A DNA stretch of 43,036 bases from Shigella phage SFN6B, in the sequence record KY684082. One strand, 5' to 3'. The notes beneath the pieces are model-generated. The model was not told the origin of the DNA. It saw only the letters and a program-made list of their open reading frames with translations, and did no database searches. Positions 546 through 20,175 of the stretch are shown one piece after another. The position numbers were made by a program, and so were the translations under genes. Positions within the stretch are counted from its first letter, which is position 1; each line of letters begins with the position of its first letter.

Positions 546-561
546 CGCCCAGTGCGCCGTG

Positions 562-717: not shown

Positions 718-734
718 ATGTTACAGGAGTAGGA
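718..734 (+). promoter_or_regulatory. Candidate phage-RNAP promoter, copy 1 of exact 17-mer ATGTTACAGGAGTAGGA (left non-coding end)
   Basis: Exact 17-mer shared with 20183..20199 and 32788..32804; ends in ...GAGTA|GGAG, resembling the -1/+1 region of T7-family promoters. Confidence 0.4.
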
Positions 735-890
735 GGGTTTTAGGGCACTACATACATACTACTTACTACTACTCACTAGTATCCCCTAGTAATGCCCTAT
801 ATTACGACCGTAGGGAGTAAGCATTACCTACACAGTAACTGCATTGCTCCGTGTCCTTTCACTTCGTACGGACACTACGCACTGCTTTAT

Positions 891-940
891 GTAGTATTAG
901 ATAGTGTTAGGTAGTATTGGTTAGTATTGGTTAGTGGTGG
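891..940. repeat. Degenerate tandem repeat, ~10-bp unit (GTAGTATTAG / GGTTAGTATT) x5
   Basis: Read directly: gtagtattag atagtgttag gtagtattgg ttagtattgg ttagtggtgg. Confidence 0.75.
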
Positions 941-1201
941 CGAGCAGTGGCTACAGCTAGTAGCTGCATAGTGCTACCCCTAGTGCTATCCCTAGAATAG
1001 AAGCATTGGCTAAGTATTTGCCCCGCTTACCCCTTTTGCTCTCAGTGATAAAAGTTTAAAAAAAAGTGCTTGCTTCTTTTGGTTAGTTAGCGCTATAGTT
1101 CAATCACCGGGAGGCACTGAGGCGCTGAACGGGGTAGAGTCGGGAGACTCCACCGGATTAAAGCTAGATAGTGTGAAGGGTTAGATACTCGATAAAAAGA
1201 G

Positions 1202-3298: not shown

Positions 3299-3643
3299 AT
3301 GCTCACAGTAGACGAAACAGCGCTACTGTGTTGGCGCTTGCTAGAGACGCAAGGCAAGTGCGGCTGCAGTTGGGAAACATTCAAAGAGGTCCCTAATGAA
3401 CTCAAGCGAATCGTACCGGTCGAGCGTAGGCCCCTCCGAGTTCGTAAGCAGGATTCTACGGTGGTGCTCACCGCATACCGGGAGTATACAGAATCTGCCG
3501 CGCGGCAGTTGCAAGAGCACCTTGCATTCAATGTGGTTGCAGCGCTACGGCAGTATGGATATAGGGGAGCTTTTACGCGATTTAAAGCCGCAGTGCGAGC
3601 CTATTACAAGCAGCAACAACTCTCTGCGTGGTATGCACGCTGA
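3299..3643 (+). CDS. Hypothetical early protein (114 aa)
   Basis: ORF track; AAGGA Shine-Dalgarno upstream. Confidence 0.55.
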   Translation: MLTVDETALLCWRLLETQGKCGCSWETFKEVPNELKRIVPVERRPLRVRKQDSTVVLTAYREYTESAARQLQEHLAFNVVAALRQYGYRGAFTRFKAAVRAYYKQQQLSAWYAR

Positions 3644-3689
3644 ACTTTTAACGTATGATGAGATACTAGTAACACCGGAGACAAAGAAA

Positions 3690-5405: not shown

Positions 5406-6439
5406 TGTATGGTGTTGACCTTAAACTACTGACAAAGATACTAACAACGCACCGACCTAGCTGGGGCAGTACCAAATGGTTTGAGCCGCTACTTAGTAGC
5501 GCTCTTGCTGGTGCAGAACACTACGTTAGGGACGCTCATGGTAACTACTTTGTGCTTATTGGTAACTCTGAACAGAGTGACGTAGCATTTACATCACACC
5601 TCGACACAGTGGCCCGGCCTGGTAGTGCTGCGCCAGACATTGCAATCACTAACAAGGGCATAATGTTCCTGCGGAATCCACAGGTGGCGGATTGTCTAGG
5701 TGCAGACTGCGGTGCTGGTATCTACCTGATGCTAGAGATGATTAGGCACGGTGTGCATGGGCGCTACTGCTTCTTCGTGGATGAGGAGGTAGGTTGTGAG
5801 GGCAGCAGAGCATCAGCCAAAGATGATACAGGGTTCTGGACTGGGGTCAAGGCGATGATTAGCTTCGACCGCCGGGGTGATGGTATCATTACGCATCAAC
5901 GGTACATGCGCTGCTGCTCTGATACGTTCGCAAAGGAACTAGCGGCCCGACTAGGACGAACGGAGGCGCACTTACAGAAGGGGGTATACACGGACTCCGC
6001 TGAGTTCGTAAGTATTATCCCAGAGTGCACTAACGTAGGCGTAGGGTACATGCACGAACATACACCAGACGAGGTGCTGGACTTAAACATCCTTGGTCAG
6101 GTACTGGAGCGTGTACTGCAAGCAGGCACATTCAAGCACCTACCGATTGAACGGGATCCAAAGGTAGTGGAACCGGATGCGTGGTTATCTGCCTCTGCGT
6201 ATCCTTTTGATATGTCACTAGATGTTCCCTATGCGGAAGACCCGCATTTACTTGCAGCATTCAAGGAGGTGTCACAGCTTTCTAAGCAGCAACTGATTAG
6301 TTGGGTATTGGATAACCCAGCAAGGGCGGCGGAGTACATCATGGTGTTCTCCGATTATGGCTTCAAAGAGGAACTGATTGAACTTGGCACCCGAGTTGTA
6401 GAGGACTGGGGTGGATACGAGAATATTGTGGAGGGTTGA
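5405..6439 (+). CDS. Putative MH-clan (M20/M28/M42-like) zinc metallopeptidase
   Basis: Ordered motifs matching the co-catalytic zinc peptidase pattern: SHLDTV (H-x-D), LGADCGAG (bridging Asp), FFVDEEVGCEGS (Glu-Glu), later Asp and His (MHEHT). Motif-level reading only. Confidence 0.5.
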   Translation: MYGVDLKLLTKILTTHRPSWGSTKWFEPLLSSALAGAEHYVRDAHGNYFVLIGNSEQSDVAFTSHLDTVARPGSAAPDIAITNKGIMFLRNPQVADCLGADCGAGIYLMLEMIRHGVHGRYCFFVDEEVGCEGSRASAKDDTGFWTGVKAMISFDRRGDGIITHQRYMRCCSDTFAKELAARLGRTEAHLQKGVYTDSAEFVSIIPECTNVGVGYMHEHTPDEVLDLNILGQVLERVLQAGTFKHLPIERDPKVVEPDAWLSASAYPFDMSLDVPYAEDPHLLAAFKEVSQLSKQQLISWVLDNPARAAEYIMVFSDYGFKEELIELGTRVVEDWGGYENIVEG

Positions 6440-6441
6440 TT

Positions 6442-6912
6442 ATGTCTAAGTTTAAAGTTGGTGATAAAGTTGTCCGCAAATCACCCGACGACAGTTCATC
6501 GTTTAAGAAGCACCAAGGGGATTTTGATTACTACACAGTTACAGATATGTCCCCAAGCGGCCACTGGCTGCAGTTGGACAACTTTACTATCGACGATGAC
6601 TATTACCCGTGGTGTGCAACTAACTTCGAGCTGTACCAAGAGCTGGACGACGAGCTGCCGCCTGCACCAACCTCAGTACTCTATTACCATAGCACTGCGG
6701 ATGCATATAACTTGCAGCATATGATCGTGCAACCACATTGGGAGTTAGAGGGACATCTCAGTATCGCTATCGTGAAGAGCGGTAAAAAGTTCGATCCCCT
6801 GGCTTACGGTGATGCATTATCCCTCAACCTGGAACCCGATGCAGCCTTGCAGTTGGCACATGACCTATGCCGCATGGCTATGGATATTAAACGTAAGGAG
6901 AAAGCACAGTGA
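6442..6912 (+). CDS. Hypothetical protein (156 aa)
   Basis: ORF track 6436..6912; ATG at 6442 preceded by GGAGGG. Confidence 0.6.
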   Translation: MSKFKVGDKVVRKSPDDSSSFKKHQGDFDYYTVTDMSPSGHWLQLDNFTIDDDYYPWCATNFELYQELDDELPPAPTSVLYYHSTADAYNLQHMIVQPHWELEGHLSIAIVKSGKKFDPLAYGDALSLNLEPDAALQLAHDLCRMAMDIKRKEKAQ

Positions 6913-7370
6913 AGTATGAGTACAACCCGGATACCGGGGAGATACTGCGCTATGGGAAACCGGTAGGGTCTAAGGACTCCTCCGGGTACCTGGTGGTGTG
7001 GGTGGATGGTAAGTGCTGGCGTGCCCACCGTCTGGCCTACCACCTACAAGGCTTGCCGGTACCTAGACAAGTGGACCACATTAATGGAATCAAAGATGAT
7101 AACCGGTGGGTCAACTTACGTGCAGCCACTAACTCTCAGAACCAGTACAACCGCAAAGGTTGTGCTGCATCAGGAAACCTAAAGGGCGCATACTACAACA
7201 AGGCTATGCGCAACTGGTACTCCCTAATTCGTGTAGGTGGTAAGCGTAAATACTTAGGCTCTTACCGTTCGGAAGCTGAGGCCCACGCAGCCTATGTAAA
7301 GGCCTCTCAACAAATGCACGAGGGGTTTGATGTATGGACGAGCCGTGGCTTAGAGCCTGCAAGCGCCTAG
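6909..7370 (+). CDS. HNH homing endonuclease (HNH plus AP2-like DNA-binding region), paralog 1
   Basis: VDHINGIKDDNRWVNLRAATNSQN HNH core; GTG start with AAGGAG upstream; paralogs at 13318, 24732 and 35743. Confidence 0.8.
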   Translation: MKYEYNPDTGEILRYGKPVGSKDSSGYLVVWVDGKCWRAHRLAYHLQGLPVPRQVDHINGIKDDNRWVNLRAATNSQNQYNRKGCAASGNLKGAYYNKAMRNWYSLIRVGGKRKYLGSYRSEAEAHAAYVKASQQMHEGFDVWTSRGLEPASA

Positions 7371-8122
7371 CGATAGGGCAATCGAGTAGGTTCCGCTGCT
7401 GCGGCAAGACTCCTGCAGCGGTAATCTACAATAAACCTGACACCTGGAGCATGTACTGCTTTAGGTGTCACAAGACTGTTAATGAGCGCAAGCAGTACCA
7501 GCGCATACAGTTACAGGAAGAGCCGAGGGTGCAGCCCTCTGCACCTGCAGATGCAATTTGCATTAGCCAAGCGCCTGCGGAAACACAGAATTTTATTTAC
7601 GGATTCCTTGCTACAAAAGGAATCATGCCTGAAATGGTGGGGGATGCAGAATGGAGCAAAGAGAAACAGCGGATACTATTCCGTGCCGGGGGTGCTGTAC
7701 TGGGCCGCGCTGTTCATGCCCGACAGCAACCGAAGTGGGTAATGTACGGCCAGCCAATAGCTTTCGCTGTCGCGGCACCTGCCGTAGCACCGGCTGTAGC
7801 TGCGGCCGCACCTCTAAAGGTCGTGCTCACCGAGGACTTACTCTCAGCCCGGAAGATACAGCACGCAGTTACGAGCTACAGTGCGTTGAACGTGCAGGCT
7901 ATAGCTATGCTGGGTACACGCTTGCCCACGCAGCTAAGGGCCTGGCTGATTCAGAATCGCCCGGAAGTGATTCTGATGCTGGATAATGACCCGGCAGGGC
8001 ATGCTGGGGTAGTAGCAGCACGCAAAGCACTGCGCCCGTTCATGCAGTGCCGAGAACATTACTTCGCTGCGGATCCTAAGGACGCAGAAATCAAAGAGAT
8101 ACTGGAGGCGCTTAATGCTTAA
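7334..8122 (+). CDS. DNA primase (zinc-binding domain plus TOPRIM)
   Basis: CCGKT...CFRCHK zinc-finger pattern; TOPRIM-like VVLTEDLLSARK and VILMLDNDPAGHAG; sits immediately upstream of the helicase. Confidence 0.8.
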   Translation: MDEPWLRACKRLAIGQSSRFRCCGKTPAAVIYNKPDTWSMYCFRCHKTVNERKQYQRIQLQEEPRVQPSAPADAICISQAPAETQNFIYGFLATKGIMPEMVGDAEWSKEKQRILFRAGGAVLGRAVHARQQPKWVMYGQPIAFAVAAPAVAPAVAAAAPLKVVLTEDLLSARKIQHAVTSYSALNVQAIAMLGTRLPTQLRAWLIQNRPEVILMLDNDPAGHAGVVAARKALRPFMQCREHYFAADPKDAEIKEILEALNA

Positions 8123-8321: not shown

Positions 8322-9602
8322 TTGGACCTAATAGTAGTCAAGGCAATGTGCACACAGAAGGTCTGGAACCGACTGCGAGAGCAGATACCCAAGTCTATGC
8401 TAGCGCCAGATACATCAAACCTACTGGACTGGGTGGGGCTGTACTGGAACACGTACCCGGAGCACCAGGAGGTGCAGTGGGACGCGATGCAAAGCATGCT
8501 CAATCTCCGGGCCGGACACTTGTCCCGTGAAGAGCGGGTGATTATGGACGAGCTTATGCGGGGAGTACAAGCCGTGCCACAGGATTCTGTGGTGGGGATT
8601 GTTCAGACCCTGAATGAGTTAGCATACAGTGGGGAGGTTGCTGCACTTACACAGCGCTACCAAGACGGTGAGGAGGTTGATTACCTGCTGGAGATGAAGC
8701 ACCTCCAGCGCAAGTACGGTGATGGTGCTGCTGTTCATGATTCGCTACTGGAATGGGAGAGCGGAAGTGTTGATGAGATACTTGCCGCGACTGATGAAAG
8801 TGGCGGTCTTAAGCTGGGTGTGTTTGAGCAACTGTCGAGTAGCATTCGTGGGCTTCGCGGAGGTGATTGCATCGCCGTTGCTGCCCCTGTTGATTCTGGT
8901 AAAACTAGTCTACTCGCTGCTATTGCCGTGGACTTTGCTAAGCAGATGCAGCAACAACCCGAAGTATATGGGGACCGTCCGATTCTGTGGTTGGTTAACG
9001 AAGGCCCGGCGACGCGTACAGTGCCGAGGGTATATCAAGCGGCGCTGCATTGGACTTTGGCTGAGATTAAGGACAGGCACAGTAGGCAAGAGTTTGTGCC
9101 AGCCTATCTGGAGAAAGTAGGCAGGGCTGACCGCATCCGTATCAAGGCAGCGCACTCCCTTACGATGGCCCAAATCTCTACACTCATGGAGGAGATGCGT
9201 CCGGCGGTAATCATCATAGATATGGTGGCTAACATCCGTGGTGGTACTATGGAGAGCGAACACCAGAACCTAGAGGCGAAGTGGCAGGAGCTGCGTATCC
9301 TGGGGTGTGAGAATGACTGTGCTGTTATCGGTACTATGCAGCTTTCGCTTGAAGGTTACAACCTGCTGTTCCCGCCGCTCACGGCGATGAAGCAGAGTAA
9401 GATTGGTGTACAAGGTGCTTTGGATTTGGCGATTATGATGGGGTGCTTAGACAGGAACGAGCAGCCGCACATGCAAAACATTCGTGGTATCAGTACACCC
9501 AAGAACAAGATGGCGCTATCAGGCAAGGAATCGCTACTGCAATTCGAGGTAGCATTCGACCCAGGTAGATGCCGCTTTAACGAAGGGCAGATTAACAAGT
9601 GA
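8322..9602 (+). CDS. DnaB-like replicative DNA helicase
   Basis: Walker A AAPVDSGKTSLL and Walker B AVIIIDMV; TTG start 5 nt after GGAGG. Confidence 0.85.
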   Translation: MDLIVVKAMCTQKVWNRLREQIPKSMLAPDTSNLLDWVGLYWNTYPEHQEVQWDAMQSMLNLRAGHLSREERVIMDELMRGVQAVPQDSVVGIVQTLNELAYSGEVAALTQRYQDGEEVDYLLEMKHLQRKYGDGAAVHDSLLEWESGSVDEILAATDESGGLKLGVFEQLSSSIRGLRGGDCIAVAAPVDSGKTSLLAAIAVDFAKQMQQQPEVYGDRPILWLVNEGPATRTVPRVYQAALHWTLAEIKDRHSRQEFVPAYLEKVGRADRIRIKAAHSLTMAQISTLMEEMRPAVIIIDMVANIRGGTMESEHQNLEAKWQELRILGCENDCAVIGTMQLSLEGYNLLFPPLTAMKQSKIGVQGALDLAIMMGCLDRNEQPHMQNIRGISTPKNKMALSGKESLLQFEVAFDPGRCRFNEGQINK

Positions 9603-9637: not shown

Positions 9638-9663
9638 TACATGGTATGGGAGGTATAAGTAGT

Positions 9664-12027
9664 ATGACAACCAGTATAATGCACATCGATTTGGAGACAG
9701 AGAACCATGAATATTATGGCTCTAAAGCAAGCCCATACTGCCCTGACAACTATGTTGTTGAGTCAGCATGGCGTATCGACACAACACAAGCTGACGGTAC
9801 TACCACTGTTGGCGCGACTCAATCAGTGCGCTTCAATTCAAGAGCTGATTTCTTGGCGGGAAACAGTGCAGCAGAAGGCTGCCGGTGGTTTCATATTCCA
9901 GAGGATTGTTGGCTTATTGTTGCACACAATGCCGCCTATGAAATCTCCTGGTTCCTCACGTATCAGAGACAGCAGTTCGAAGCCTTCCTCAAGCGCGGCG
10001 GCAGGGTGTTCTGCACGATGCACGGAGAATACATCGCCTCGGACTTTCAGAGCATGTATCCGTCACTGGACGAGACGGCTCCTAAGTACGGCGGTACGCA
10101 CAAAGTAGATGGGGTTAAGATTCTCTGGGAGCAAGGTGTATTAACCTCCCAGATTGATCCTATGCTATTGCATGACTACCTAGTGAATGGGGATATACCG
10201 AACACGGCCCTGTGCTTCTACGGCCAGTGCGCTACGTTCGCCCAGCGTAATCAGATGCAGTACGTGTGGGAGCGTATGGATGCGTTGCTGGCATGGGCAT
10301 ACTGTGAATGGTTTGGACTGTTCGTGAATATGCCTATTGCTCGCAAGAACCAAGAGGAGCAGGAGCAGCGTATCCTGGAGATTAAACAGGAACTGCAGCA
10401 GTACATACCGAAGGACTTGCCGGAGACCCTGGATTTCAACTTCGGTTCAGACTTTCATATGTCCGCACTGGTGTACGGCGGGCCTATCAAGTACCGCAAG
10501 AAGGTTCCCTATGACCCGCCGCAGTATGTTAAAGACGATTACTACCGCCTATTAGATGGTGGGAAGGTTCTGTGCAGGAACGTGGGTGGAGATGACTGGG
10601 ACCAGAAGGTAGTTAAGTATGCCTCAGGGAAGAACAAGGGCCTTCCCAAAGTATTCCGCCTTGATACAGAGGAGGAGAAACTCAAATGGGAGGACGACCT
10701 ATACTTCTGCCCGGGCCTGGTTAACATCCAAGAACTTCCAGAGGTGCTCCGAGAGAAGTATGCTGAGCGTGGGGAATTCAGGCAAGCACGGTGCCTGCAG
10801 GATGGGACACCAATCTACAGCACCAGCACAGATGCAATGGAAGCCCTAGCACGTAATGGATTTGAGTTCTGTCGATTGGTGAACGAACTAGGCGCTCTGG
10901 AGAAGGACACAGGAACCTACTACCTGCGAACAGAGTACAACGAAGATGGGTCAGTTAAAAAGACCTCGGGCATGCTTCAGTACGTCATACCTCAGAACTC
11001 CGATGACTCAGGTATTATTCACCACCGCCTTAATACTTGTGCTACTGTTACCGGGCGACTATCTGGCTCTAACCCAAACCTCCAGAATCTCCCGCGAGAT
11101 GGAACTAGTAAAGTAAAACAGATGTTCACTTCCCGTTTCGGTGAATCCGGTCGTATCACTGAGGTTGACTACTCCGCCCTGGAAGTGGTTATGTCTTGTG
11201 TTCACACCGGAGACAGGAAGCTGTTGGGTTTGCTGCAGAACGGCACGGATATGCACTGCTACCGCCTAGCGTTCAAGGAGGGCAAAACCTACGAAGAGAT
11301 GTATGACCTCTGCCACAACGCCAATGGGCCGGACTACAAATACTGGAAGCAGCAGCGTACGGACATTAAGCCTCCGAGCTTTGCTGCACAGTACGGGGCT
11401 ACGGCTAAAGGGATTGCGTTTGCTACAGGCTGTACAGTGGAGTATGCGCAGTCGTTCCTGGATAACGAGGCGAAGCTGTTCCCAGACACCATCGGATTCC
11501 GGGCGGTAGTGAAGGAGGAGGTAGAGCGCACCGGGGCGGCTGGGCGCATTTACCGGGAGCAGGCGGATGATGGCAGCTACCGCATCTACCGCATTGGCAC
11601 CTGGACCAGCCCAGCTGGTGCACGGTACAGCTTCCGCCAGAAGGAGCAGTGGAAGGAAGTAGTCCCTGGCCAGCGCAAACAAAAGGTGATGGACTACAAA
11701 GAAACTGAGATGGCTAACTACTGGTGTCAGGGTGAGGCATTCTTCCTGATGGCGGTAGCAGCTGGTATGGTTCTGCGTGCAATGCTGGCGCGTGATTGGT
11801 TCGATAATCAGGTGTGTTTGATTACGAACGTACACGATGCATTGTATCTGGATAGTGCTAATCCGGAAGTAGGCAGAGAAGCGAGCCTGTTGGTTAAGCA
11901 GTGTATGGAGGATGCGCCTAAGCGTATTCACCAGCTCTGGCCTAACTACGGCATCATTGGCGAAGTCCCGTTCCCAGCGGAAGCTGAAATGGGTACAAGC
12001 ATGTACAGTAAGGAGAAAGTAGAATGA
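9664..12027 (+). CDS. DNA polymerase, family A (T7 gp5-like)
   Basis: Exo motif HIDLETE; pol motif A DYSALEVV, motif B KPPSFAAQYG, motif C NVHDALYLD; track start 9646, ATG 9664 preferred because of GGGAGG upstream. Confidence 0.9.
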   Translation: MTTSIMHIDLETENHEYYGSKASPYCPDNYVVESAWRIDTTQADGTTTVGATQSVRFNSRADFLAGNSAAEGCRWFHIPEDCWLIVAHNAAYEISWFLTYQRQQFEAFLKRGGRVFCTMHGEYIASDFQSMYPSLDETAPKYGGTHKVDGVKILWEQGVLTSQIDPMLLHDYLVNGDIPNTALCFYGQCATFAQRNQMQYVWERMDALLAWAYCEWFGLFVNMPIARKNQEEQEQRILEIKQELQQYIPKDLPETLDFNFGSDFHMSALVYGGPIKYRKKVPYDPPQYVKDDYYRLLDGGKVLCRNVGGDDWDQKVVKYASGKNKGLPKVFRLDTEEEKLKWEDDLYFCPGLVNIQELPEVLREKYAERGEFRQARCLQDGTPIYSTSTDAMEALARNGFEFCRLVNELGALEKDTGTYYLRTEYNEDGSVKKTSGMLQYVIPQNSDDSGIIHHRLNTCATVTGRLSGSNPNLQNLPRDGTSKVKQMFTSRFGESGRITEVDYSALEVVMSCVHTGDRKLLGLLQNGTDMHCYRLAFKEGKTYEEMYDLCHNANGPDYKYWKQQRTDIKPPSFAAQYGATAKGIAFATGCTVEYAQSFLDNEAKLFPDTIGFRAVVKEEVERTGAAGRIYREQADDGSYRIYRIGTWTSPAGARYSFRQKEQWKEVVPGQRKQKVMDYKETEMANYWCQGEAFFLMAVAAGMVLRAMLARDWFDNQVCLITNVHDALYLDSANPEVGREASLLVKQCMEDAPKRIHQLWPNYGIIGEVPFPAEAEMGTSMYSKEKVE

Positions 12028-12407: not shown

Positions 12408-13388
12408 TTGGCTAAAATTAGTTTGATTAACCTGTTCAGCAAAGACCAGCACGAGGAAGTGCTGAGTTATCATAAAGACAACACGGCGGCAGCTGCAGCC
12501 TACACAGCTATGACGGATGGGAAATACCCAGTGTCCCGCCAGCTTGTACGCTACTGGCGCAGCATCTTTATGGATAATAATGGTAGCAAGGCAAAGGCTA
12601 ATAATGCTTTGATGCAAGCCCGCAAACTAATCCAGCCCTCCCCAACGGATGACATTGGGGATACGTTTGTACCGGAAACCTGTCGACGTATTCTCGTTAT
12701 CGGGGACCTGCACGAACCGTACACACACCCGGACGCGTATGACTTTTTATGCACTGTGAGGGATGAGTACTGCCCAGACATTGTGGTGCAGATAGGCGAT
12801 GAGACAGATGGACACGCTATTAGCTTCCATGATAGCAGTCCGGAGTTAGACAGCGCTGGAGTGGAATTAGAGAAGGCCAAGCTCGGTCTGGAGAGGCTTC
12901 ATGCTCTGTTCCCTAACATGCTCCTGTGCGACTCTAACCATGGCTCCCTTGTATACCGTAGAGCCAAAGCTCATGGACTCCCTGTACAGTTCATTAAGAA
13001 GTATCGGGACATCCTGTTCCCAGAGCACGGAGCGCCGGGGTGGAGTTGGGGTGATGCTTGGGATTTAAATACTCCGATGGGTACTGTGCGATTTCAACAT
13101 CAAGTATCTGGGGACCTTCTGCTCAACGCAGCTCATGAACGTAAGTCCATGGTAATTGGACACTTCCATGGGAAGTTAGATATACAGTATGCGGCGAGCA
13201 GCACTGCTTTGTACTTTGGTGCGCACTGCGGTTGTTTAATCGACAATAAGAGTCTGGCATTTGCTTATGGTAAGTTGTCAAGAAGCAAGCCGATTCTAGG
13301 GTGTATGGTGATTACAGATGGATGCCCACAAATCATCCCCATGCTATTGGACGACACCGGCCGGTGGTGTTCTAGAGTACAACCCTGA
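12408..13388 (+). CDS. Calcineurin-like metallophosphoesterase (putative nuclease or phosphatase)
   Basis: MPP signature blocks GDLHEP, GDETDGH, DSNHG, GHFHG; TTG start after GAGAGG. Confidence 0.7.
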   Translation: MAKISLINLFSKDQHEEVLSYHKDNTAAAAAYTAMTDGKYPVSRQLVRYWRSIFMDNNGSKAKANNALMQARKLIQPSPTDDIGDTFVPETCRRILVIGDLHEPYTHPDAYDFLCTVRDEYCPDIVVQIGDETDGHAISFHDSSPELDSAGVELEKAKLGLERLHALFPNMLLCDSNHGSLVYRRAKAHGLPVQFIKKYRDILFPEHGAPGWSWGDAWDLNTPMGTVRFQHQVSGDLLLNAAHERKSMVIGHFHGKLDIQYAASSTALYFGAHCGCLIDNKSLAFAYGKLSRSKPILGCMVITDGCPQIIPMLLDDTGRWCSRVQP

Positions 13389-13827
13389 TACCGGGGAGTT
13401 CACATGGGTTAAAGTTGTTAGTAACCGTGCCAAGTTGGGAAGTACTGCTGGGCACGTAAGACCTGATGGGTACTTGGTATTGCCGTGCGGAACCCGTGCT
13501 AATGTTGCAGCGTGTATGTTGTTGGGCCTAGATGTTCCTGATGGATATGTGGTGGACCACATTAACAGGGACACCCTGGATAACCGCGCGTGCAATCTTA
13601 GGGTTGTGTCAAAGAAGGTTAATGCACACAACACGGGGCTCCGGGCCACCAACAAAACAGGTGCTCGCGGAGTCTCTTGGGATTCTAGCAGAGGCAAGTA
13701 CCGGGCCGCTCTGATGGTGGACGGAAAGCAATACAGCAGGCGCTTTGACAGCTTAGAAGAGGCCTCAGAGTGGTACCACAGTGTGGCCGACAAACACGGG
13801 GTTAGGCAATACCAGCAACCTGCATAG
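13318..13827 (+). CDS. HNH homing endonuclease, paralog 2
   Basis: YNPDTGEF... then VDHINRDTLDNRACNLRVV HNH core and AP2-like GVSWDSSRGKYRA; overlaps the 3' end of the metallophosphoesterase gene by ~70 nt; start uncertain. Confidence 0.75.
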   Translation: MDAHKSSPCYWTTPAGGVLEYNPDTGEFTWVKVVSNRAKLGSTAGHVRPDGYLVLPCGTRANVAACMLLGLDVPDGYVVDHINRDTLDNRACNLRVVSKKVNAHNTGLRATNKTGARGVSWDSSRGKYRAALMVDGKQYSRRFDSLEEASEWYHSVADKHGVRQYQQPA

Positions 13828-13896
13828 ATGTTCTTAAACCGTTAAGCCCTGCATCTGCACATAAATTTTATTTAAACTAAACGAGGACATAATTAT

Positions 13897-14721
13897 ATGA
13901 CTATGAATGCACTGGATACTCTGAACTCCCTGGTAGCTGCTGCGATTGAAACGCAAGATGTTGATATGACGGAGACCGCCCAGGGTGGGGCATATGAGGA
14001 CGTACTGCTGCCGAAGGGTGAATACTATGGTTACTTCACTGAGTACGTGGAAATCGGTAAGCGCCTCCCGACTAAGGGTGGTAAGCCTACTGGTAAGCCT
14101 GCAGCGGCAAACGTGCGTATCGGGGTTGTGGTGTACGGTCCGAACGGTGAGGTGAAGCGTATCCGTCCGTATCCGATGACTATCAGCAACTTTGAGCGCG
14201 CGGGCTTCAAGAAGTTCTTCGACAAGCTCAACTACGATGGCAGCATTAAGCACGCCGCACAGCGACTGGGACAGGCGTTTGTGTTCCCAGTGGATGAGCA
14301 CACCAGTGCAGCAGGTAAGAAGTCCAACATCGTAGACCTCGCGGCAATCCGTCCGATTCCGAAATTCGACCCGAATACCGGTGAGCCGATTAAAATGCCT
14401 GAGCTGGATGCTTCCGAGATTAAGCTATTCTTGTGGAACAACCCGACCAAGGAAACCTGGGATAGCTTATATATTGAGGGGACCAAGGACGACGGTAAGA
14501 GCAAGAACTGGATTCAGGAGGATATGTATAAGGCAGTGGACTTCCCAGGCAGTGCTCTGGATATTCTGCTGAACGCTAGCTCAGTTCCTAGTCCGGCAGC
14601 TATGCAGACCCCAGCAGCCCCAGCTGCTCCTGCTGCTCCAGCTACACCAATAGCTCCGGCTGCACCAGTGGCTCCAGCGGCCCCTGTAGCACCAGCAGCG
14701 CCTGCTGCACCTCAAGCATAA
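13897..14721 (+). CDS. Hypothetical protein with C-terminal Pro/Ala-rich repeat (274 aa)
   Basis: ORF track; C-terminus PAAPAAPAAPATPIAPAAPVAPAAPVAPAAPAAPQA encoded by a degenerate 9-nt repeat. Confidence 0.65.
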   Translation: MTMNALDTLNSLVAAAIETQDVDMTETAQGGAYEDVLLPKGEYYGYFTEYVEIGKRLPTKGGKPTGKPAAANVRIGVVVYGPNGEVKRIRPYPMTISNFERAGFKKFFDKLNYDGSIKHAAQRLGQAFVFPVDEHTSAAGKKSNIVDLAAIRPIPKFDPNTGEPIKMPELDASEIKLFLWNNPTKETWDSLYIEGTKDDGKSKNWIQEDMYKAVDFPGSALDILLNASSVPSPAAMQTPAAPAAPAAPATPIAPAAPVAPAAPVAPAAPAAPQA

Positions 14722-14744: not shown

Positions 14745-14761
14745 GGCCCCGCCCAGGGGCC
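14745..14761 (+). promoter_or_regulatory. GC-rich hairpin (GGCCCC-gccca-GGGGCC), possible terminator or processing site
   Basis: 6-bp perfect stem directly downstream of the stop at 14721; no clean U-tract. Confidence 0.35.
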
Positions 14762-15437: not shown

Positions 15438-15591
15438 CTTCTTTGCTAAAGCCTTTTACTTCCTGTTAGTAGCCCCTCTAGTACCAGTAGCCTTCCTGTG
15501 CTGGGTATTTGAGAAGATAGAAAACAGTAAAGCACTTATCGCATGGGAATCCTGGGCGCGTAAGCTAGCCAAGAAGGTTACGGGGGTCTGA
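15430..15591 (+). CDS. Small membrane protein (53 aa)
   Basis: ORF track 15379..15591 trimmed to ATG 15430 (GGAGGG upstream); hydrophobic FYFLLVAPLVPVAFLCWVF. Confidence 0.45.
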   Translation: MRNFFAKAFYFLLVAPLVPVAFLCWVFEKIENSKALIAWESWARKLAKKVTGV

Positions 15592-16559
15592 TGATTATCA
15601 ACGGGGTTGACTTGTCCCAGCTCGGGGAGCAGTTAGCTCCGCAGAACGCTGGGAAGATTCTGCTGTACGACGCGGACTTTTGCGTGTACAAAGCCGCTGC
15701 TACAGTGAAACGGCTAGATACCGCGATACGCCGCTTCTATCAACTGGTGCTTGAGGATATGTTCTTGGTCGGTTGCTCAGAAGCAGTGGCGTATCTAACG
15801 CCTACGGGCTGTGCTAAGTGCTTGCGATGGCACCTCCCTACGGCTAAGCCCTACCAGGGGCAGCGCATTAATCGGCAGGAGCTACCTCTAAAGGCGCCAT
15901 TGAAGCGGCACTTAATTGAGAATCCCGACCAGTACTATGAGCAAGGTATCCAGGTAGTTAGTAGTGACTTCTTCGAGGCGGATGACTTGTTCGTAATGGA
16001 TTCATACGCTTTCGGAGAACGTGGTATTCTGATGTCACAGGATAAAGATTCCTGGCTCAGCCCCATGGCTAGATTTGATATTCCAACCGGTACAGTGTGG
16101 CCTGCACTGAAGGATCCCTTCGGCTGGATTAAGTGGGATGATACCCAGGCTATGCCGGTACGAGCACACGGCTTGAAGTTCTTCTGGTGGCAGATGCTAG
16201 CGGGAGATGATGCCGATAACGTCAAAGGCATCACGTTGCTTGATGGGAAGCCCTGTGGCAAGCGAACGGCCTTTGATGCTATCTACCCTATTACCTCAGA
16301 GCAAGACGCCGCAGAGTTCGTTGTAGCGGCTTATGCTAGAAACAACCAAGATGTACTCGCAGAGGCTGAATGCCTGTTCCTGCGGCGCTCCCAATCAGAT
16401 TCTGCCTATCAGTATCTGATGTCACTGTTGACTACTCCCAGTCTACGTGACTGGGTGCAGTCGCTGCACGAGTACCATAAACAGCACATACAGTGGATAC
16501 AGGAGCACCCAGACAATGGCGAAGATGTCTGCGAAGGAAATGAGCCTGCGGGCGATTGA
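15591..16559 (+). CDS. 5'-3' exonuclease (T7 gene 6-like, FEN family)
   Basis: N-terminal ILLYDADFCVYKAA and later GLKFFWWQMLAGDDADNVKGI parallel T7 gp6 blocks (VMDGDWLVFQA, WWHLFQTIKGDITDGYSGI) as recalled. Confidence 0.8.
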   Translation: MIINGVDLSQLGEQLAPQNAGKILLYDADFCVYKAAATVKRLDTAIRRFYQLVLEDMFLVGCSEAVAYLTPTGCAKCLRWHLPTAKPYQGQRINRQELPLKAPLKRHLIENPDQYYEQGIQVVSSDFFEADDLFVMDSYAFGERGILMSQDKDSWLSPMARFDIPTGTVWPALKDPFGWIKWDDTQAMPVRAHGLKFFWWQMLAGDDADNVKGITLLDGKPCGKRTAFDAIYPITSEQDAAEFVVAAYARNNQDVLAEAECLFLRRSQSDSAYQYLMSLLTTPSLRDWVQSLHEYHKQHIQWIQEHPDNGEDVCEGNEPAGD

Positions 16560-16713: not shown

Positions 16714-16913
16714 AATTGAACGTTGAGGCACCACGCCAAAAGAACAGAGAGTGTGTAACATGCGACCCCTGTCCCTTTTCGTACATGTGGGCCGTTAGTA
16801 GCCCTAGCGAAACTTACTACTGGTTCTTCTGGGCGCGCCCTACTAAGAAGCAACTACGCAGGTTGCAGCGCACCTACCGCAGAATCTTGGTAGATGGGGA
16901 TTGTATTGCATGA
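16710..16913 (+). CDS. Hypothetical small protein (67 aa)
   Basis: ORF track; ATGA overlap with the upstream gene. Confidence 0.45.
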   Translation: MKLNVEAPRQKNRECVTCDPCPFSYMWAVSSPSETYYWFFWARPTKKQLRRLQRTYRRILVDGDCIA

Positions 16914-17332
16914 GCCTGCGTAAAATTACACGGGCACAGATTCGCTCTGTGGCTATTAAACTCGCCAAAGACCAGGGAGGCATATGCCTCCTTTGTGGTA
17001 AGCCTTTGGACTTTACAATCAAGGGGGTGACTGGTGATTCTGTTGTCGTTGACCACTGTCATATTACTGGGCGTATTCGGGGTGCTCTTCATCGCTCATG
17101 CAATGGAGGAGAGGGCAAGGTGGCATCTGCCGCTGGGCGCTGGATTGTTGGTAGCATGCAATCTTCTGGGGCTATTGCTGAATCTCTGCGTAGGGTTGCC
17201 GACTACCTAGACCGGGAACCGACGGATATGTTATACTACACATATAAGACTCCGGAAGAACAGGCACAGGCACAGAGGCTCAAGGCACGCAAGGCCAGAG
17301 CTAGACGTAAAGCGCGGGAGATTATTAAATGA
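16910..17332 (+). CDS. Endonuclease VII-like Holliday-junction resolvase
   Basis: Motif VVVDHCHITGRIRGALHRSCN matches the Endonuclease_7 His-Cys box (DHxH...G..RG.L...CN); track start 16901 is TTG, ATG at 16910. Confidence 0.75.
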   Translation: MSLRKITRAQIRSVAIKLAKDQGGICLLCGKPLDFTIKGVTGDSVVVDHCHITGRIRGALHRSCNGGEGKVASAAGRWIVGSMQSSGAIAESLRRVADYLDREPTDMLYYTYKTPEEQAQAQRLKARKARARRKAREIIK

Positions 17333-17706: not shown

Positions 17707-20175
17707 ATGATTAGCGCCCTGAATACGGTTGTAGTACCCGAGGAAGCACTGGTGGAACGCCAGTTGGAGCTTGAAGAGACTTACAAGATTCGCGGCATTG
17801 AACGTGCTCGCAAATTGATTACCGACGCTCTACAAAACGGCGGGATTATGAACCTGCCTATGACTCAGCGCATGCTAACCTCTGCGTACGACGTGGCCTC
17901 TGCAGCCATTGAGGAAATGCGTAACACCAAAGCCCCGGGTATTGGTGGAAAGTACCGCCGATTCCTACGCTTAGTCCCCTTGGATGTCCTAACTACTCTG
18001 AGCCTGTGCACAATGTTTGAGGCGTTCAGTGTTGCTCCTGGTGAGTCCGCCAGTCGCCGCCAAACAGCTCAGGCAGTGATGTCCGCTCTGGGTAGGAATG
18101 TACAGTCAGAGCTGCTGGCCCTACAACTACGTAATGTTGCCCCAGCGTATATGGACCGGGTATATGAATACCTCACTGAGCGCCGTACTAAGTCGCCTAC
18201 GCACATTCTGCGTACGCTCCGCGCCAGTGCTGAGAACGTGCACTATGGGCATGAGCCTTGGACCAACGCTCAGAATATTTCTGTGGGACGTCTGCTGTGT
18301 TCCGCAGTGTTTGAGACAGGGCTGTTCCAGTGGAAGACTGGTAGCGGGAACTTGAGTATGCTCTATCCCGCAGATAATGTTATGGAAGCATTTCAGCAGT
18401 TAGTGGAATCTGCTGACACTGTAACTATGAAGCCTCCGATGCTGGTGCCTCCGGTGCCACATACTACACTGTGGGATGGTGGCTACCTCACCCCAATAGA
18501 TAACCGTGGGACGTACCACAACTCACACATTGACCGCGCCAGACTGCGTGAAGTAGCGGAAGCATTTAAGTCTGCGGACGGTATCAAGAAGGCACTTAAT
18601 AAGGCGCAGGAAACTCCTTATCGCATTAATAAGCGAATACTGGAACTGGTACAAGAAGCACGGGCCTTAGGTATTGGTGTAGGTATGCCGCGCTCAGTGC
18701 CAGAGCCGAAACCTGAGTGGTACTTAGATGGTGTACCAAAAGAGAATTACACCGAGGAGGAACTCGACCGCTTCGGAGAGTGGAAGACGCGTATGTCCTT
18801 ATGGTACAGCGCAGACCGTAAGCGTGTGTCACAATTACGTAGCCTATTGACCACGCTAGAGATGGCAGAGGAATTCAAAGATGAGAAAGCCCTGTACTTC
18901 CCAACCTGTGTGGATTGGCGGTACCGGCTGTACTTCAAGTCCTCACTGCACCCCCAAGGTTCTGATTTGCAGAAGGCACTTCTTGAATTCGGACGAGGTA
19001 AACCTCTGGGAGAGAGAGGGTTATTCTGGCTTAAAGTGCACGTCGCTACCTGCTTTGGTTATGACAAAACCCTATTCGAAGACCGTGCAGCTTGGGTTGA
19101 TGCAAACTTTGCAGAGATTGAGCAGCTCGCGGATTCCCCTTTTGATTGCCCTGCTTTTACCTCCGCTGACAGCCCTTGGTGCTTCCTGGCAGCCGCTATT
19201 GACTTGGTTAATGCTGTACGTTCTGGATGCCCAGAAGAGTACATTAGCCGAATCCCGGTTGCTATGGATGCTACAAACTCAGGTGGGCAGCACCTCTCAG
19301 CGCTCCTGAGAGACCCTGTAGGCGGACGCCTGACGAACCTGTACTGGGAGGGTAACGACAAGAAAGCGGATCTGTATATGGACGTGAAGCGCCGTACGGA
19401 CGAGAAGGTGATACTGGACCTGGACAAAGAGGATTTCGTTATCCAGAGCACGTACTGGAGAGAGAACGAAATCACTCGAAGCATGACCAAGCGTCCTAGC
19501 ATGACCTACTTCTACAGCGCCACGGTGCGCAGCTGCAGCGACTATATCTTTGCCGGGGCCTGTGAAGAGGGGTATGAAGGAACGGATACGCACAGTCTTT
19601 GGAACCTTTCCTGCTACCTGGCTCCCAGAATGCGCAGTGCTATTGAGGAAGCTAACCCGGCAGCAGCAGCAGCTATGGGGTATCTGCAGAACCTCGCTAG
19701 GCGTGTACCTGCTAGTCAGCATCTGCAGTGGAAGACTCCGCTAGGTGGGCTGGTGATGAACCGGTACTCTCAGCGAGAGGAGGTACGTGTACGTATTGAC
19801 TGCATGAACCTGTCCGCCGTGCTGGTACACAACCGTGACTTTAAGACCTGTAATAAGCGCAAGGCCGCCTCTGGTATTGCCCCGAACTTTGTACATAGTC
19901 TGGATAGTACGCACTTGATGATGGTACTCTGTGCGGCAGAAGGTCTGGATATTGTCCCGATTCACGATTCGATGGCGACTCACGCGGCTGATGTAGATGC
20001 CCTGCACCGACATATCCGTGAACAGTTTGTGAAGCTGTACGAGGAGCACGATCTTCTGGGGGATATTACCAGGGCAGCTGCCGAAGCAGGGGCAGACCTG
20101 ACGGACCTGGATATGCCTGCGGTTGGTACTTTGGACATTCGGCAAGTGCTAGAATCTCCGTTCTTCTTTTCATAA
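17707..20175 (+). CDS. Single-subunit DNA-directed RNA polymerase (T7-like)
   Basis: 822 aa; motifs VAMDATNSGGQH, RSMTKRPSMTYFYSA, APNFVHSLDSTH, PIHDSMATHA parallel T7 RNAP motifs A, B and C; GGAG upstream. Confidence 0.95.
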   Translation: MISALNTVVVPEEALVERQLELEETYKIRGIERARKLITDALQNGGIMNLPMTQRMLTSAYDVASAAIEEMRNTKAPGIGGKYRRFLRLVPLDVLTTLSLCTMFEAFSVAPGESASRRQTAQAVMSALGRNVQSELLALQLRNVAPAYMDRVYEYLTERRTKSPTHILRTLRASAENVHYGHEPWTNAQNISVGRLLCSAVFETGLFQWKTGSGNLSMLYPADNVMEAFQQLVESADTVTMKPPMLVPPVPHTTLWDGGYLTPIDNRGTYHNSHIDRARLREVAEAFKSADGIKKALNKAQETPYRINKRILELVQEARALGIGVGMPRSVPEPKPEWYLDGVPKENYTEEELDRFGEWKTRMSLWYSADRKRVSQLRSLLTTLEMAEEFKDEKALYFPTCVDWRYRLYFKSSLHPQGSDLQKALLEFGRGKPLGERGLFWLKVHVATCFGYDKTLFEDRAAWVDANFAEIEQLADSPFDCPAFTSADSPWCFLAAAIDLVNAVRSGCPEEYISRIPVAMDATNSGGQHLSALLRDPVGGRLTNLYWEGNDKKADLYMDVKRRTDEKVILDLDKEDFVIQSTYWRENEITRSMTKRPSMTYFYSATVRSCSDYIFAGACEEGYEGTDTHSLWNLSCYLAPRMRSAIEEANPAAAAAMGYLQNLARRVPASQHLQWKTPLGGLVMNRYSQREEVRVRIDCMNLSAVLVHNRDFKTCNKRKAASGIAPNFVHSLDSTHLMMVLCAAEGLDIVPIHDSMATHAADVDALHRHIREQFVKLYEEHDLLGDITRAAAEAGADLTDLDMPAVGTLDIRQVLESPFFFS

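What the first reader, a model, noticed from the sequence alone, without database searches (positions are those of the whole stretch)
14610..14721. Pro/Ala-rich C-terminal tandem repeat in a middle-region protein
The protein at 13897..14721 ends with PAAPAAPAAPATPIAPAAPVAPAAPVAPAAPAAPQA, encoded by imperfect 9-nt repeats (GCTCCAGCx). This is a flexible extended tail, different from the acidic tail expected of a T7 gp2.5-type SSB. Repeat number may vary by slippage.
Basis: seen in the sequence. Interest (0 to 1): 0.4.

Follow-up and report, generated by a model that had tools for sequence, protein, structure and literature searches.

The report
Proline-alanine repeat tail on putative phage SSB
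A Klebsiella/E. coli podophage replication protein, probably its single-stranded-DNA-binding protein, ends in an uncharged run of twelve "x-Ala-Pro" units whose number changes quickly between near-identical phages, where related proteins carry the acidic docking tip typical of such proteins.

Summary
ORF 13897..14721 (274 aa) ends in 12 in-phase x-A-P units (14605-14712) followed by Q-A-stop, encoded by degenerate 9-nt repeats.

The window is a Drulisvirus (KP34-like, phiKMV supergroup). The protein is the ortholog of phiKMV ORF21 / LUZ19 Gp21 (phrog_862, no Pfam family). Databases label it "hypothetical", "large tegument protein" or "Fe-S oxidoreductase".

In 61 close relatives the tail varies only in whole 3-aa units, giving proteins of 256-328 aa. 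Two pairs with 100% identical cores differ by one unit. One of these differences is a clean gain or loss of one copy of a perfect 9-nt tandem, the signature of slippage. Composition is constrained: no D, E or R in 2,479 tail residues.

An AlphaFold model gives a basic, aromatic-rich barrel with OB-fold strand order. Its matches to PrgE, RPA, PriB and SSB structures are weak, and there is no detectable homology to T7 gp2.5. About 8% of family representatives end in the bacterial SSB tip (DDDIPF), including a syntenic ortholog.

Best reading: an SSB-like replication protein whose linker and tail module here is an uncharged, probably stiff proline-alanine rod without an acidic tip. ssDNA binding and the role of the tail are untested.

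The parts
13883..13887 (+). Shine-Dalgarno-like GAGGA, 9 nt upstream of the ATG
   Evidence: read directly from the sequence
13897..14721 (+). CDS of 274 aa plus stop. Ortholog of phiKMV ORF21 / LUZ19 Gp21 (phrog_862). Putative SSB-like replication protein.
   Evidence: synteny
13897..14013 (+). N-terminal acidic segment (aa 1-39: 7 D/E, no K/R). Predicted helix at aa 5-19, then a low-confidence loop carrying the family-invariant D23, G30 and G31.
14014..14346 (+). Predicted barrel with OB-fold strand order (aa 40-150): b1 41-56, b2 70-80, b3 86-89, helix 103-111, b4 127-136, b5 142-146. Basic (pI 9.8, 18 K/R against 10 D/E) with 14 aromatic residues. Inferred ssDNA-binding surface.
14347..14592 (+). 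Conserved acidic, mostly helical C-terminal subdomain (aa 151-232), including the invariant P183, T184, W188, N204, Q207, G218 and S219
14593..14718 (+). Uncharged Pro/Ala tail (aa 233-274): conserved lead-in PAAMQ, the x-A-P array, and the conserved end A-P-Q-A
14605..14712 (+). The repeat array proper: 12 in-phase x-A-P units (9-nt period, degenerate at the DNA level). This is the part that changes length between relatives.
14745..14761 (+). GC-rich hairpin (GGCCCC-GCCCA-GGGGCC) 24 nt after the stop, with no U-run on the + strand. Possibly a 3' end or processing structure. It is not shown to belong to the feature.
   Evidence: z = -1.8, not significant

Best explanation
The gene encodes the phage's SSB-like replication protein, the ortholog of phiKMV ORF21 / LUZ19 Gp21. 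It has an acidic N-terminal segment, a basic aromatic-rich OB-type barrel that is inferred to coat ssDNA, and an acidic helical subdomain. Its C-terminal tail corresponds to the 'disordered linker plus tip' module of bacterial SSB.

In other branches of the family that tail ends in partner-docking tips: the bacterial SSB tip DDDIPF, or an LAALGL-type tip. In the Drulisvirus branch the tail is a charge-free, glycine-free x-A-P array with only a short conserved A-P-Q-A end.

I infer that it forms an extended polyproline-II-like rod of roughly 11-12 nm for about 37 residues. The rod would act as a spacer or bristle that sets SSB-SSB spacing and cooperativity on ssDNA. It might also present multivalent PxxP sites or the PQA end to a phage replisome partner, without recruiting host SSB-interacting proteins.

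The number of units changes by slipped-strand mispairing or unequal pairing among the 9-nt repeats, faster than point substitutions accumulate in the core. Selection keeps the composition (x-A-P, uncharged) and a preferred length of about 13-14 units.

Shown here: the repeat, its conservation, unit-wise length variation, the compositional constraint, orthology and synteny, and the tail types in relatives. Inferred: ssDNA binding, rod conformation, and the spacer or partner-binding role.
For: Repeat and conservation:
- Homologs listed down to 35% identity end in P/A-rich tails, apart from a few frameshifted or truncated entries (P0021, P0092) and a few that end otherwise (P0053, P0090).
- Pro columns 251-269 are nearly invariant in the 40-sequence alignment.

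Length variation:
- 61 close relatives have proteins of 256, 262, 265... 286 and 328 aa, always in 3-aa steps, with a mode of 277-280 aa.
- L032/L034 and L025/L028 have 100% identical 711-nt cores and differ by one unit.
- L025/L028 differ by two versus three copies of a perfect CCGGTAGCA tandem.
- L027 carries a 45-nt perfect unit about four times.

Compositional constraint:
- 2,479 tail residues are A 1332, P 784, V 190, Q 77, T 60 and S 26, with 0 D/E/R, 3 G and 1 L.
- One-step mutation of these codons would make D+E+R about 19% and G about 11% of the non-P/A residues.

SSB-like nature:
- The AF2 model (pLDDT 82) has OB strand order.
- The top Foldseek PDB hits are PriB and SSBs.
- The barrel segment has pI 9.8 and 14 aromatic residues.
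- The gene sits between the DNA polymerase and the exonuclease and endonuclease VII genes.
- No other SSB is recognisable among the early and middle ORFs.
- 12 of 150 50%-identity representatives end in a DDDIPF-like tip, for example GDFDDDIPF, ELDDDIPF and AGDDDIPF.
- P0090 (...PSIDFDDDTPF) occupies the same syntenic slot in a phiKMV-like contig.
- The E. coli SSB tip is MDFDDDIPF, its linker is 56 aa long and needed for cooperativity, and bacterial linkers range from about 25 to 125 aa (PMC7145534; PMC5872125).
- LUZ19 Gp21, the ortholog (37% identity, E 3e-43), is among the most abundant early/late-early phage proteins (PMC3604761), as expected of a stoichiometric DNA-coating protein.
- A few GenBank records already label it 'single strand DNA binding protein'.
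Against: - There is no sequence or profile match to any Pfam family, PDB chain or T7 gp2.5.
- The whole core is acidic (pI 5.4).
- In P. aeruginosa, LUZ19 Gp21 expression caused immediate growth arrest and a 20-25% drop in transcription and translation. It left DNA replication unaffected. This does not point specifically to a replication role.
- The window protein lacks any acidic or aromatic tip, so the classical SSB partner-recruitment mechanism cannot apply.
- The proposal that PxxP motifs in the SSB linker bind partners is contested for E. coli SSB (PMC7145534).
- The spacer or rod role of the tail is inference only.
- Some length variants come from metagenome assemblies. The L027 expansion, with exact repeats of at least 60 nt, could be an assembly artefact.
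Confidence: 0.55

Rival explanations
1. The protein is mainly a host-shutoff or host-manipulating factor rather than the replisome SSB. The Pro/Ala tail is a PxxP-type ligand or tether for a host target.
For: Single-copy expression of the ortholog LUZ19 Gp21 arrests P. aeruginosa growth at once and lowers transcription and translation by 20-25%, while DNA replication is unaffected (PMC3604761). The function is unknown in Pfam and PHROGs. The tail is a continuous PxxP array.
Against: The gene is conserved in the replication module of about 900 phages infecting very different hosts. That fits a core replication role better than a host-specific effector. The core has OB-type topology with a basic, aromatic barrel. 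Relatives carry the SSB-specific DDDIPF tip after a linker. Toxicity of an over-produced foreign nucleic-acid-coating protein is not unexpected (inference). The two roles are not mutually exclusive.
Confidence: 0.2
2. The tail is a selectively neutral low-complexity expansion, produced and maintained only by replication slippage. It has no role beyond being tolerated.
For: Length is highly polymorphic, 19-91 residues after the MQ landmark, even between phages with identical cores. The tail sequence does not align between clades, only its composition. pLDDT is low at residues 230-248.
Against: The P/A tail is retained in homologs down to 35% identity. The DNA repeat is degenerate, with many synonymous differences, while the x-A-P pattern is strict: position 2 is Ala in 836 of 867 cases and position 3 is Pro in 784 of 806. 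No D, E or R occurs, against an expected 19% or so of replacements. The length distribution is peaked, with 35 of 61 tails at 40-43 residues. The lead-in and the PQA end are conserved. Every in-frame variant keeps the frame.
Confidence: 0.1
3. The protein is a T7 gp2.5-type SSB and annealing protein in the strict sense, that is, a divergent member of the gp2.5 family that has swapped its acidic tail.
For: It lies in an Autographiviridae genome with a T7-like replisome of primase, DnaB-like helicase, Pol A, exonuclease and endonuclease VII. The OB order with a helix between b3 and b4 is the arrangement I recall for gp2.5 (own knowledge). BFVD Foldseek links the model to many phage OB-like proteins, including a DUF669 protein (E 1.5e-4). 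I recall DUF669 as gp2.5-like, from my own knowledge; this was not tested.
Confidence: 0.1
4. The database labels are right: the protein is a 'large tegument protein', an 'Fe-S oxidoreductase', a 'structural protein' or a 'DNA polymerase'.
For: These labels appear on GenBank records of close relatives.
Against: The only resemblance to a herpesvirus large tegument protein is a low-complexity match of residues 232-268 (E 4.6). There are no Fe-S, oxidoreductase or polymerase domains in Pfam. The core contains no cysteine (sequence). The gene lies in the DNA-metabolism block, not the virion block.
Confidence: 0.02

Closest known systems
LUZ19 Gp21 / phiKMV ORF21 (PHA02030; phrog_862)
   Same: Ortholog: 37% identity over the core (E 3e-43 to 4e-43). 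It occupies the same slot between the DNA polymerase and the exonuclease/endonuclease VII genes and has a P/A/V-rich C-terminal tail. LUZ19 Gp21 is experimentally abundant early/late-early and toxic when expressed alone (PMC3604761).
   Different: The Pseudomonas proteins are longer (349 aa), with insertions in the barrel. Their tail is longer and less regular, rich in V/A/P and ending ...VPAVPVIPAVPQV, rather than a strict x-A-P array. No biochemical function has been published in the library searched.
Bacterial SSB (E. coli SSB: OB domain + 56-aa disordered linker + acidic tip MDFDDDIPF)
   Same: Both have the architecture 'OB-type DNA-binding core, then a low-complexity proline-containing linker, then a C-terminal tip'. 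The E. coli linker contains a PAAP motif and varies from about 25 to 125 aa among bacteria (PMC7145534). 12 of 150 family representatives, and the syntenic ortholog P0090, end in near-copies of the SSB tip.
   Different: There is no sequence homology (no PF00436 hit) and only weak fold matches. The core is about twice as large, with extra N- and C-terminal parts. The window protein has no acidic tip and no charge in the tail. The tail is a strict 3-residue repeat free of Gly and Gln-rich stretches.
T7 gp2.5
   Same: It would play the same expected role in an Autographiviridae replisome: an abundant middle-class protein with a functionally important C-terminal tail (PMC10359462 abstract).
   Different: There is no detectable homology and the gene position differs. 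The gp2.5 tail is strongly acidic and ends in Phe (...EEADEDGDF). This tail is uncharged and ends in Q-A.
PrgE of plasmid pCF10 (PDB 8S4S), an atypical OB-fold SSB
   Different: Identity is 7% and rmsd 3.9 A, which is weak. PrgE is 128 residues in the solved chain, and no Pro/Ala repeat tail is known to me for it.
Ala-Pro-rich inter-domain linkers (E2 chains of 2-oxo acid dehydrogenases, the OmpA hinge, TonB Pro-rich rod)
   Same: These are uncharged or simple X-Pro/Ala-Pro repeats that behave as extended, rather stiff spacers. This is my own knowledge of established biochemistry and was not tested here.
   Different: Those linkers join two folded domains or span the periplasm. Here the repeat is a free C-terminal tail on a cytoplasmic replication protein, and its length is polymorphic between near-identical genomes.

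Membership tests
phiKMV ORF21 / LUZ19 Gp21 family (phrog_862, PHA02030) | Full-length match to the family profile | tested here: met
   phrog_862 E 1.9e-82 over residues 3-272. All 61 diverse members hit phrog_862. BLASTP to phiKMV ORF21 and LUZ19 gp21 gives E 4e-43 and 3e-43.
phiKMV ORF21 / LUZ19 Gp21 family (phrog_862, PHA02030) | Syntenic position downstream of DNA polymerase and upstream of the exonuclease and endonuclease VII genes | tested here: met
   Window ORF order, AttikonH1, metagenomic contig L064, phiKMV and LUZ19.
T7 gp2.5-type SSB | Sequence or profile homology to gp2.5 | tested here: not met
   hhalign of the 22-sequence core profile against T7 gp2.5 gives probability 0.09%. 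No Pfam family matches. The profile search of PDB sequences found nothing relevant.
T7 gp2.5-type SSB | OB fold closest to gp2.5 | tested here: inconclusive
T7 gp2.5-type SSB | Acidic C-terminal tail ending in an aromatic residue | tested here: not met
   The tail at residues 233-274 has no D or E and ends in Q-A. For comparison, gp2.5 ends ...EEADEDGDF.
Bacterial-type SSB (PF00436 architecture) | SSB OB domain recognisable by sequence | tested here: not met
   No PF00436 hit at E up to 1 for the window protein, or up to 0.1 for 61 members.
Bacterial-type SSB (PF00436 architecture) | OB fold similar to SSB or PriB | tested here: inconclusive
Bacterial-type SSB (PF00436 architecture) | Low-complexity or disordered linker C-terminal to the DNA-binding core | tested here: met
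   Residues 230-248 have pLDDT below 50. The tail has strict low-complexity x-A-P composition.
Bacterial-type SSB (PF00436 architecture) | Conserved acidic C-terminal tip (DDDIPF) | tested here: not met
   It is absent in the window protein and in all 61 close relatives, which end in PQA. It is present in 12 of 150 family representatives and in the syntenic ortholog P0090.
Any SSB | Preferential, sequence-independent ssDNA binding | not testable with these tools
   This needs EMSA or fluorescence titration with purified protein.
Herpesvirus large tegument protein / Fe-S oxidoreductase (labels on GenBank relatives) | Similarity outside the low-complexity tail; catalytic or Fe-S motifs | tested here: not met
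   The only match to a tegument protein chain covers residues 232-268, at E 4.6. There are no Pfam domains, and the 232-residue core contains no cysteine.

The most novel reading that the evidence does not exclude
The phiKMV-ORF21 family is a previously unrecognised class of phage SSB with an exchangeable C-terminal 'plug'. Some lineages carry the host-type DDDIPF tip and so tap the host SSB-interactome. Others carry an LAALGL-type tip. The Klebsiella, Enterobacter and Pseudomonas lineages have replaced tips with a charge-free x-A-P rod that works by a different principle: a stiff spacer and/or multivalent PxxP contacts with the phage's own replisome. The x-A-P tail's rapid unit-number change would then be an adaptive tuning knob, for example matching partner geometry, or evading host defences that sense phage SSBs or SSB-bound ssDNA (Hna, AbpAB, retron-Eco8 and DARNA, as listed in the preprint read).
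Probability: 0.15. Interest if true: 0.7.

Novelty: new variant of a known kind. Interest (0 to 1): 0.45.

Why it matters
This protein family is present in about 900 sequenced phiKMV-like phages, including many Klebsiella, Pseudomonas and Acinetobacter phages. It is almost always annotated 'hypothetical' or given a misleading label caused by its low-complexity tail.

If it is the missing SSB of these T7-like replisomes, that fills a gap in their replication model. It would also give a natural series of tail types (acidic host-type tip, LAALGL tip, uncharged x-A-P rod) for asking what an SSB tail is for. In particular, it tests whether a linker without a tip can support cooperativity or partner recruitment, a point still debated for E. 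coli SSB.

Practically, three things follow:
- The labels 'large tegument protein' and 'Fe-S oxidoreductase' should be corrected.
- The 9-nt repeat is a fast-evolving marker that can distinguish otherwise identical Drulisvirus isolates.
- The repeat is a place where short indels in assemblies produce spurious frameshifts.

Tried and rejected
- Sequence searches of the protein and of a 22-sequence core profile against PDB chains gave only low-complexity or chance hits (AKAP14, tegument protein, CCT eta).
- Pfam gave no family for the protein or for 61 diverse members.
- PHROGs gave only families of unknown function: 862, 2544 and 6599.
- hhalign against T7 gp2.5 found no relationship.
- Foldseek against PDB found nothing below E 1e-3.
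- BFVD gave strong matches only to uncharacterised phage proteins.
- I looked for a repeated promoter motif using the upstream intergenic sequence. It has a single occurrence in the window.
- The sigma-70 promoter and terminator scan around the gene found nothing above the shuffle expectation. The downstream hairpin is not significant (z = -1.8).
- The repeat finder on the region did not report the degenerate array. It found only an unrelated 16-nt pair.
- Literature searches found no biochemical study of this family as an SSB. The queries were phiKMV/LUZ19/Drulisvirus + SSB, OB-fold, and PHA02030. The gp21 + LUZ19 + phiKMV query found the only experimental data, the LUZ19 Gp21 abundance and toxicity results.
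I therefore could not check whether the moderately confident end of the tail (pLDDT 63-75) docks on the core or is polyproline-II.
- The reverse-strand ORF 14581-14715 (44 aa, Cys/Ser/Trp-rich) was rejected as a by-product of the repeat.
Full report
**1. The observation**

The + strand ORF 13897..14721 encodes 274 aa and has a GAGGA ribosome-binding site 9 nt upstream of the ATG.

In codon register there are 12 consecutive x-A-P units at 14605-14712, followed by Q-A-stop. Tandem Repeats Finder reports a period-9 array (14611-14699, 9.9 copies, 65% matches) and a period-18 array (14616-14704, 71% matches).

The DNA repeat is degenerate. The longest exact internal repeat is 8 nt, and the units use four Ala codons and three Pro codons. 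Pro is mostly CCA in the tail (7 of 12) but mostly CCG in the core (11 of 17). The regularity is therefore chiefly at the protein level. It is not a chance or assembly artefact, because the same feature occurs in hundreds of independently sequenced genomes.

**2. What the window and the gene are**

tblastn places the window among Drulisvirus (KP34-like) podophages of Klebsiella and E. coli, at 95-98% amino-acid identity to KPV811, ZH5 and Minorna. The taxonomy of a relative is Autographiviridae, Slopekvirinae, Drulisvirus.

The gene lies in the DNA-metabolism block. The order is primase (7334-8122), DnaB-like helicase (8322-9602), DNA polymerase (9646-12027), metallophosphoesterase (12408-13388), an HNH endonuclease (13318-13827), this gene, small ORFs, exonuclease (15591-16559), endonuclease VII (16901-17332) and RNA polymerase (17707-20175).

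The protein belongs to phrog_862, 'unknown function' (E 1.9e-82). It has no Pfam family. It is the ortholog of phiKMV ORF21 and LUZ19 Gp21, with 37% identity, E about 1e-43, and the same slot directly upstream of the exonuclease.

About 900 phage records carry a homolog, in phages of Klebsiella, Pseudomonas, Acinetobacter, Pectobacterium, Vibrio, Ralstonia and other hosts. Nearly all are labelled 'hypothetical protein'. Others are labelled 'large tegument protein', 'Fe-S oxidoreductase', 'structural protein' or 'DNA polymerase', and a few 'single strand DNA binding protein'. The tegument label comes from the low-complexity tail: the only PDB resemblance to a tegument protein covers residues 232-268, at E 4.6.

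**3. The tail is conserved in kind, constrained in composition and unstable in length**

Homologs listed down to 35% identity end in a P/A(V)-rich tail, apart from a few frameshifted, truncated or otherwise-ending entries. In the 40-sequence alignment the prolines at 251, 254... 269 are nearly invariant.

I fetched 61 loci from IMG/VR and one GenBank relative. Sixty of these gave usable full-length genes and, with the window, make the 61 sequences compared. Their cores are 90-97% identical to the window at the protein level. Protein lengths are:

| Length (aa) | 256 | 262 | 265 | 268 | 271 | 274 | 277 | 280 | 283 | 286 | 328 |
|---|---|---|---|---|---|---|---|---|---|---|---|
| Number of proteins | 1 | 2 | 1 | 2 | 3 | 7 | 18 | 17 | 8 | 1 | 1 |

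Every difference is a multiple of 3 aa. All 61 cores are exactly 711 nt up to the MQ landmark.

Two pairs, L032/L034 and L025/L028, have 100% identical cores yet differ by one unit. L025 and L028 are identical over 1,311 nt and in the rest of the tail. They differ only by two versus three copies of a perfect CCGGTAGCA tandem, the textbook signature of slipped-strand mispairing. L027 carries about four perfect copies of a 45-nt unit, giving a 91-residue tail. This could be real or an assembly problem.

The composition of the 2,479 tail residues is A 1332, P 784, V 190, Q 77, T 60 and S 26. G, K, H, I, N and L together account for 10, and D, E and R for none. Position 2 of the unit is Ala in 836 of 867 cases and position 3 is Pro in 784 of 806. 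A one-step mutational spectrum of these codons would make D+E+R about 19%, G about 11% and L about 9% of the non-P/A residues. The sequences are related, so these are not independent counts, but the direction is clear: charge, glycine and leucine are selected against.

The lead-in (SVPSPAAMQ-APAAP) and the end (A-P-Q-A) are conserved, and the length change is internal.

**4. What the rest of the protein looks like**

An AlphaFold2 model built on the 40-sequence alignment has mean pLDDT 82, with residues 40-229 mostly above 90. Its elements are:

- helix 5-19
- strands 41-56, 70-80 and 86-89
- helix 103-111
- strands 127-136 and 142-146
- a mostly helical region up to residue 229

This is OB-fold order (b1-b2-b3-helix-b4-b5). 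Residues 230-248 have pLDDT below 50, and the last 25 residues have 63-75.

The family profile has no relationship to T7 gp2.5 (hhalign probability 0.1%) or to any PDB sequence.

Charge is partitioned along the protein:

| Residues | Segment | Charge |
|---|---|---|
| 1-39 | N-terminal segment | acidic: 7 D/E, 0 K/R |
| 40-150 | predicted barrel | basic: pI 9.8, 18 K/R against 10 D/E, 14 aromatic residues |
| 151-232 | helical subdomain | acidic |
| 233-274 | tail | neutral |

The same pattern holds on average across 61 family members.

**5. Evidence from relatives on what the tail position is for**

A profile search of 1.8 billion representative proteins found 901 family members at E up to 1e-3. 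Their cores align, but their tails differ widely. Among the 150 best representatives:

| Tail type | Representatives | Examples |
|---|---|---|
| P/A/V-rich tail | 58 (24 with strict period-3 proline) | as in the window |
| LAALGL-type tip, usually after a Lys/Ala/Pro-rich linker | 22 | ...DDALAALGL |
| Acidic-hydrophobic tip nearly identical to the bacterial SSB C-terminus | 12 | GDFDDDIPF, ELDDDIPF, AGDDDIPF, DADDDIPY, NDDDIPW |
| Other | 56 | |

For comparison, the E. coli SSB tip is MDFDDDIPF. [quoted passage not shown]

One such protein, P0090 (46% identical to the window protein), ends ...APSAPAEPSIDFDDDTPF. It therefore has a short x-A-P stretch followed by the SSB tip. It sits in the same syntenic slot of a phiKMV-like contig: Toprim primase, DnaB-like helicase, Pol A, two unassigned genes, this gene, small ORFs, an unassigned 311-aa gene, endonuclease VII and RNA polymerase.

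An OB-type core followed by a low-complexity linker and a DDDIPF tip is the SSB architecture. This is the strongest single argument that the family is an SSB, and that the x-A-P array occupies the linker/tail position.

No other SSB candidate is recognisable among the early and middle ORFs of the window by PHROGs or Pfam.

**6. Experimental data on an ortholog**

Lavigne et al. 2013 (PMC3604761) found LUZ19 Gp21 to be one of the most abundant early/late-early phage proteins on 2-D gels and could not predict its function. Single-copy expression arrested P. aeruginosa growth immediately, with a 20-25% fall in transcription and translation and no effect on DNA replication.

High abundance fits a stoichiometric DNA-coating protein. 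The toxicity phenotype is not specific, and it keeps a host-shutoff role open. I found no later functional study.

**7. Most likely mechanism**

*Shown:* a conserved replication-module protein with an OB-ordered, basic, aromatic barrel. Its C-terminal tail has a strictly constrained x-A-P composition and a unit number that changes by 9-nt steps faster than the core accumulates substitutions. Homologous tails elsewhere in the family end in SSB-type docking tips.

*Inferred:*
- The barrel binds ssDNA.
- The tail is an extended polyproline-II-like rod rather than a floppy chain, because it contains no Gly and has Ala-Pro repeats. That such sequences are stiff, extended linkers is established knowledge for E2 dehydrogenase linkers, OmpA and TonB. 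It is my own knowledge and was not tested here.
- At about 0.3 nm per residue, the rod would be roughly 11-12 nm for the window and about 6-28 nm over the observed range.
- Because this branch has no acidic tip, the tail most likely acts as a neutral spacer or bristle that tunes packing and cooperativity on ssDNA, as the E. coli linker does. It may also present its PxxP array or its conserved PQA end to a phage partner.
- The idea that PxxP motifs bind partners is contested for E. coli SSB, so I rank it second.

Overall confidence is about 0.55. It is higher for 'SSB-like protein with a slippage-prone linker-type tail' and lower for the specific role of the tail.

**8. Comparison with known families, and novelty**

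The protein works like, and is built like, a bacterial SSB: core, then linker, then tip. It is not a member of PF00436 or of the gp2.5 family by any sequence test, and its fold matches are weak. It is a member of the uncharacterised phiKMV-ORF21 family.

The x-A-P tail is a new variant of the SSB-tail theme. It is uncharged and tipless, a strict three-residue repeat, and polymorphic in length between near-identical genomes.

It is not categorically new, and the SSB assignment has already appeared as an automated label on a few GenBank records. Interest is moderate (0.45). The value lies in identifying a likely missing replisome component of a large phage group, and in the natural tail-swap series. 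The repeat itself is of less interest.

Noticed in passing
window 13318-13827 (+): An HNH (HNH_3, weak AP2) homing-type endonuclease ORF lies just upstream of the gene and overlaps the end of the metallophosphoesterase ORF (12408-13388). The relative AttikonH1 has two small hypothetical ORFs at this position and an HNH gene upstream of the polymerase instead. The HNH genes therefore look mobile between Drulisvirus genomes.
   Followed up: partly
window 6909-7370 (+): A second HNH endonuclease ORF (phrog_99, E 6.5e-44) lies between an unknown ORF and the primase gene.
   Followed up: no
window 13897-14013 (aa 1-39): The N-terminal segment of the protein is strongly acidic (7 D/E, no K/R) and carries the family-invariant D23, G30 and G31 in a low-confidence loop. 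In a protein with no acidic C-terminal tail, this segment could play the DNA-mimic or autoregulatory role that acidic tails play in gp2.5 and SSB. This is speculation.
   Followed up: partly
relatives P0214-P0266: 22 of 150 family representatives end in a conserved LAALGL-type tip (for example ...DDALAALGL...DPLADLGL), usually after a Lys/Ala/Pro-rich linker. A few combine it with a DDDIPF-like tip (for example ...DPLADLAGDDDIPF). I could not match this tip motif to any motif known to me.
   Followed up: no
L027:1311-1583 (IMGVR_UViG_3300045988_002328): One relative has a 91-residue tail made by about four perfect copies of a 45-nt (15-aa) higher-order unit. It is either a recent expansion or a short-read assembly artefact.
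   Followed up: partly
P0092 (Klebsiella virus 2019KP1 KP1_19) and P0021: These database versions of the gene are frameshifted. P0092 shifts inside the repeat and reads ...APATLLLRQHRQHRLRQW... past the normal stop. This is probably an indel error in or near the repeat, or a real non-3n slippage event.
   Followed up: no
window 14745-14761: A perfect 6-bp GC hairpin (GGCCCC GCCCA GGGGCC) lies 24 nt after the stop codon, without a U-run on the + strand. Folding of the region is not significantly better than shuffles (z = -1.8).
   Followed up: partly
window 256-995: This region holds a cluster of short tandem repeats of period 8-20, some of them perfect (for example GGGAGGCACTA x3 at 401-433). 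It lies at the left end of the genome, upstream of the first sizeable ORFs. It may be an early regulatory or terminal-repeat region.
   Followed up: no
window 3396-5405 (+): A 669-aa early-region ORF has no Pfam family and matches only PHROGs of unknown function (phrog_6980). It is followed by a 'peptidase' PHROG ORF (5405-6439).
   Followed up: no
L065:3480-3516 and L066:914-933 (phiKMV, LUZ19): In phiKMV and LUZ19 a phage-specific promoter is annotated immediately upstream of gene 21. The corresponding intergenic sequence in the window (13828-13896) has no second copy elsewhere in the window.
   Followed up: partly
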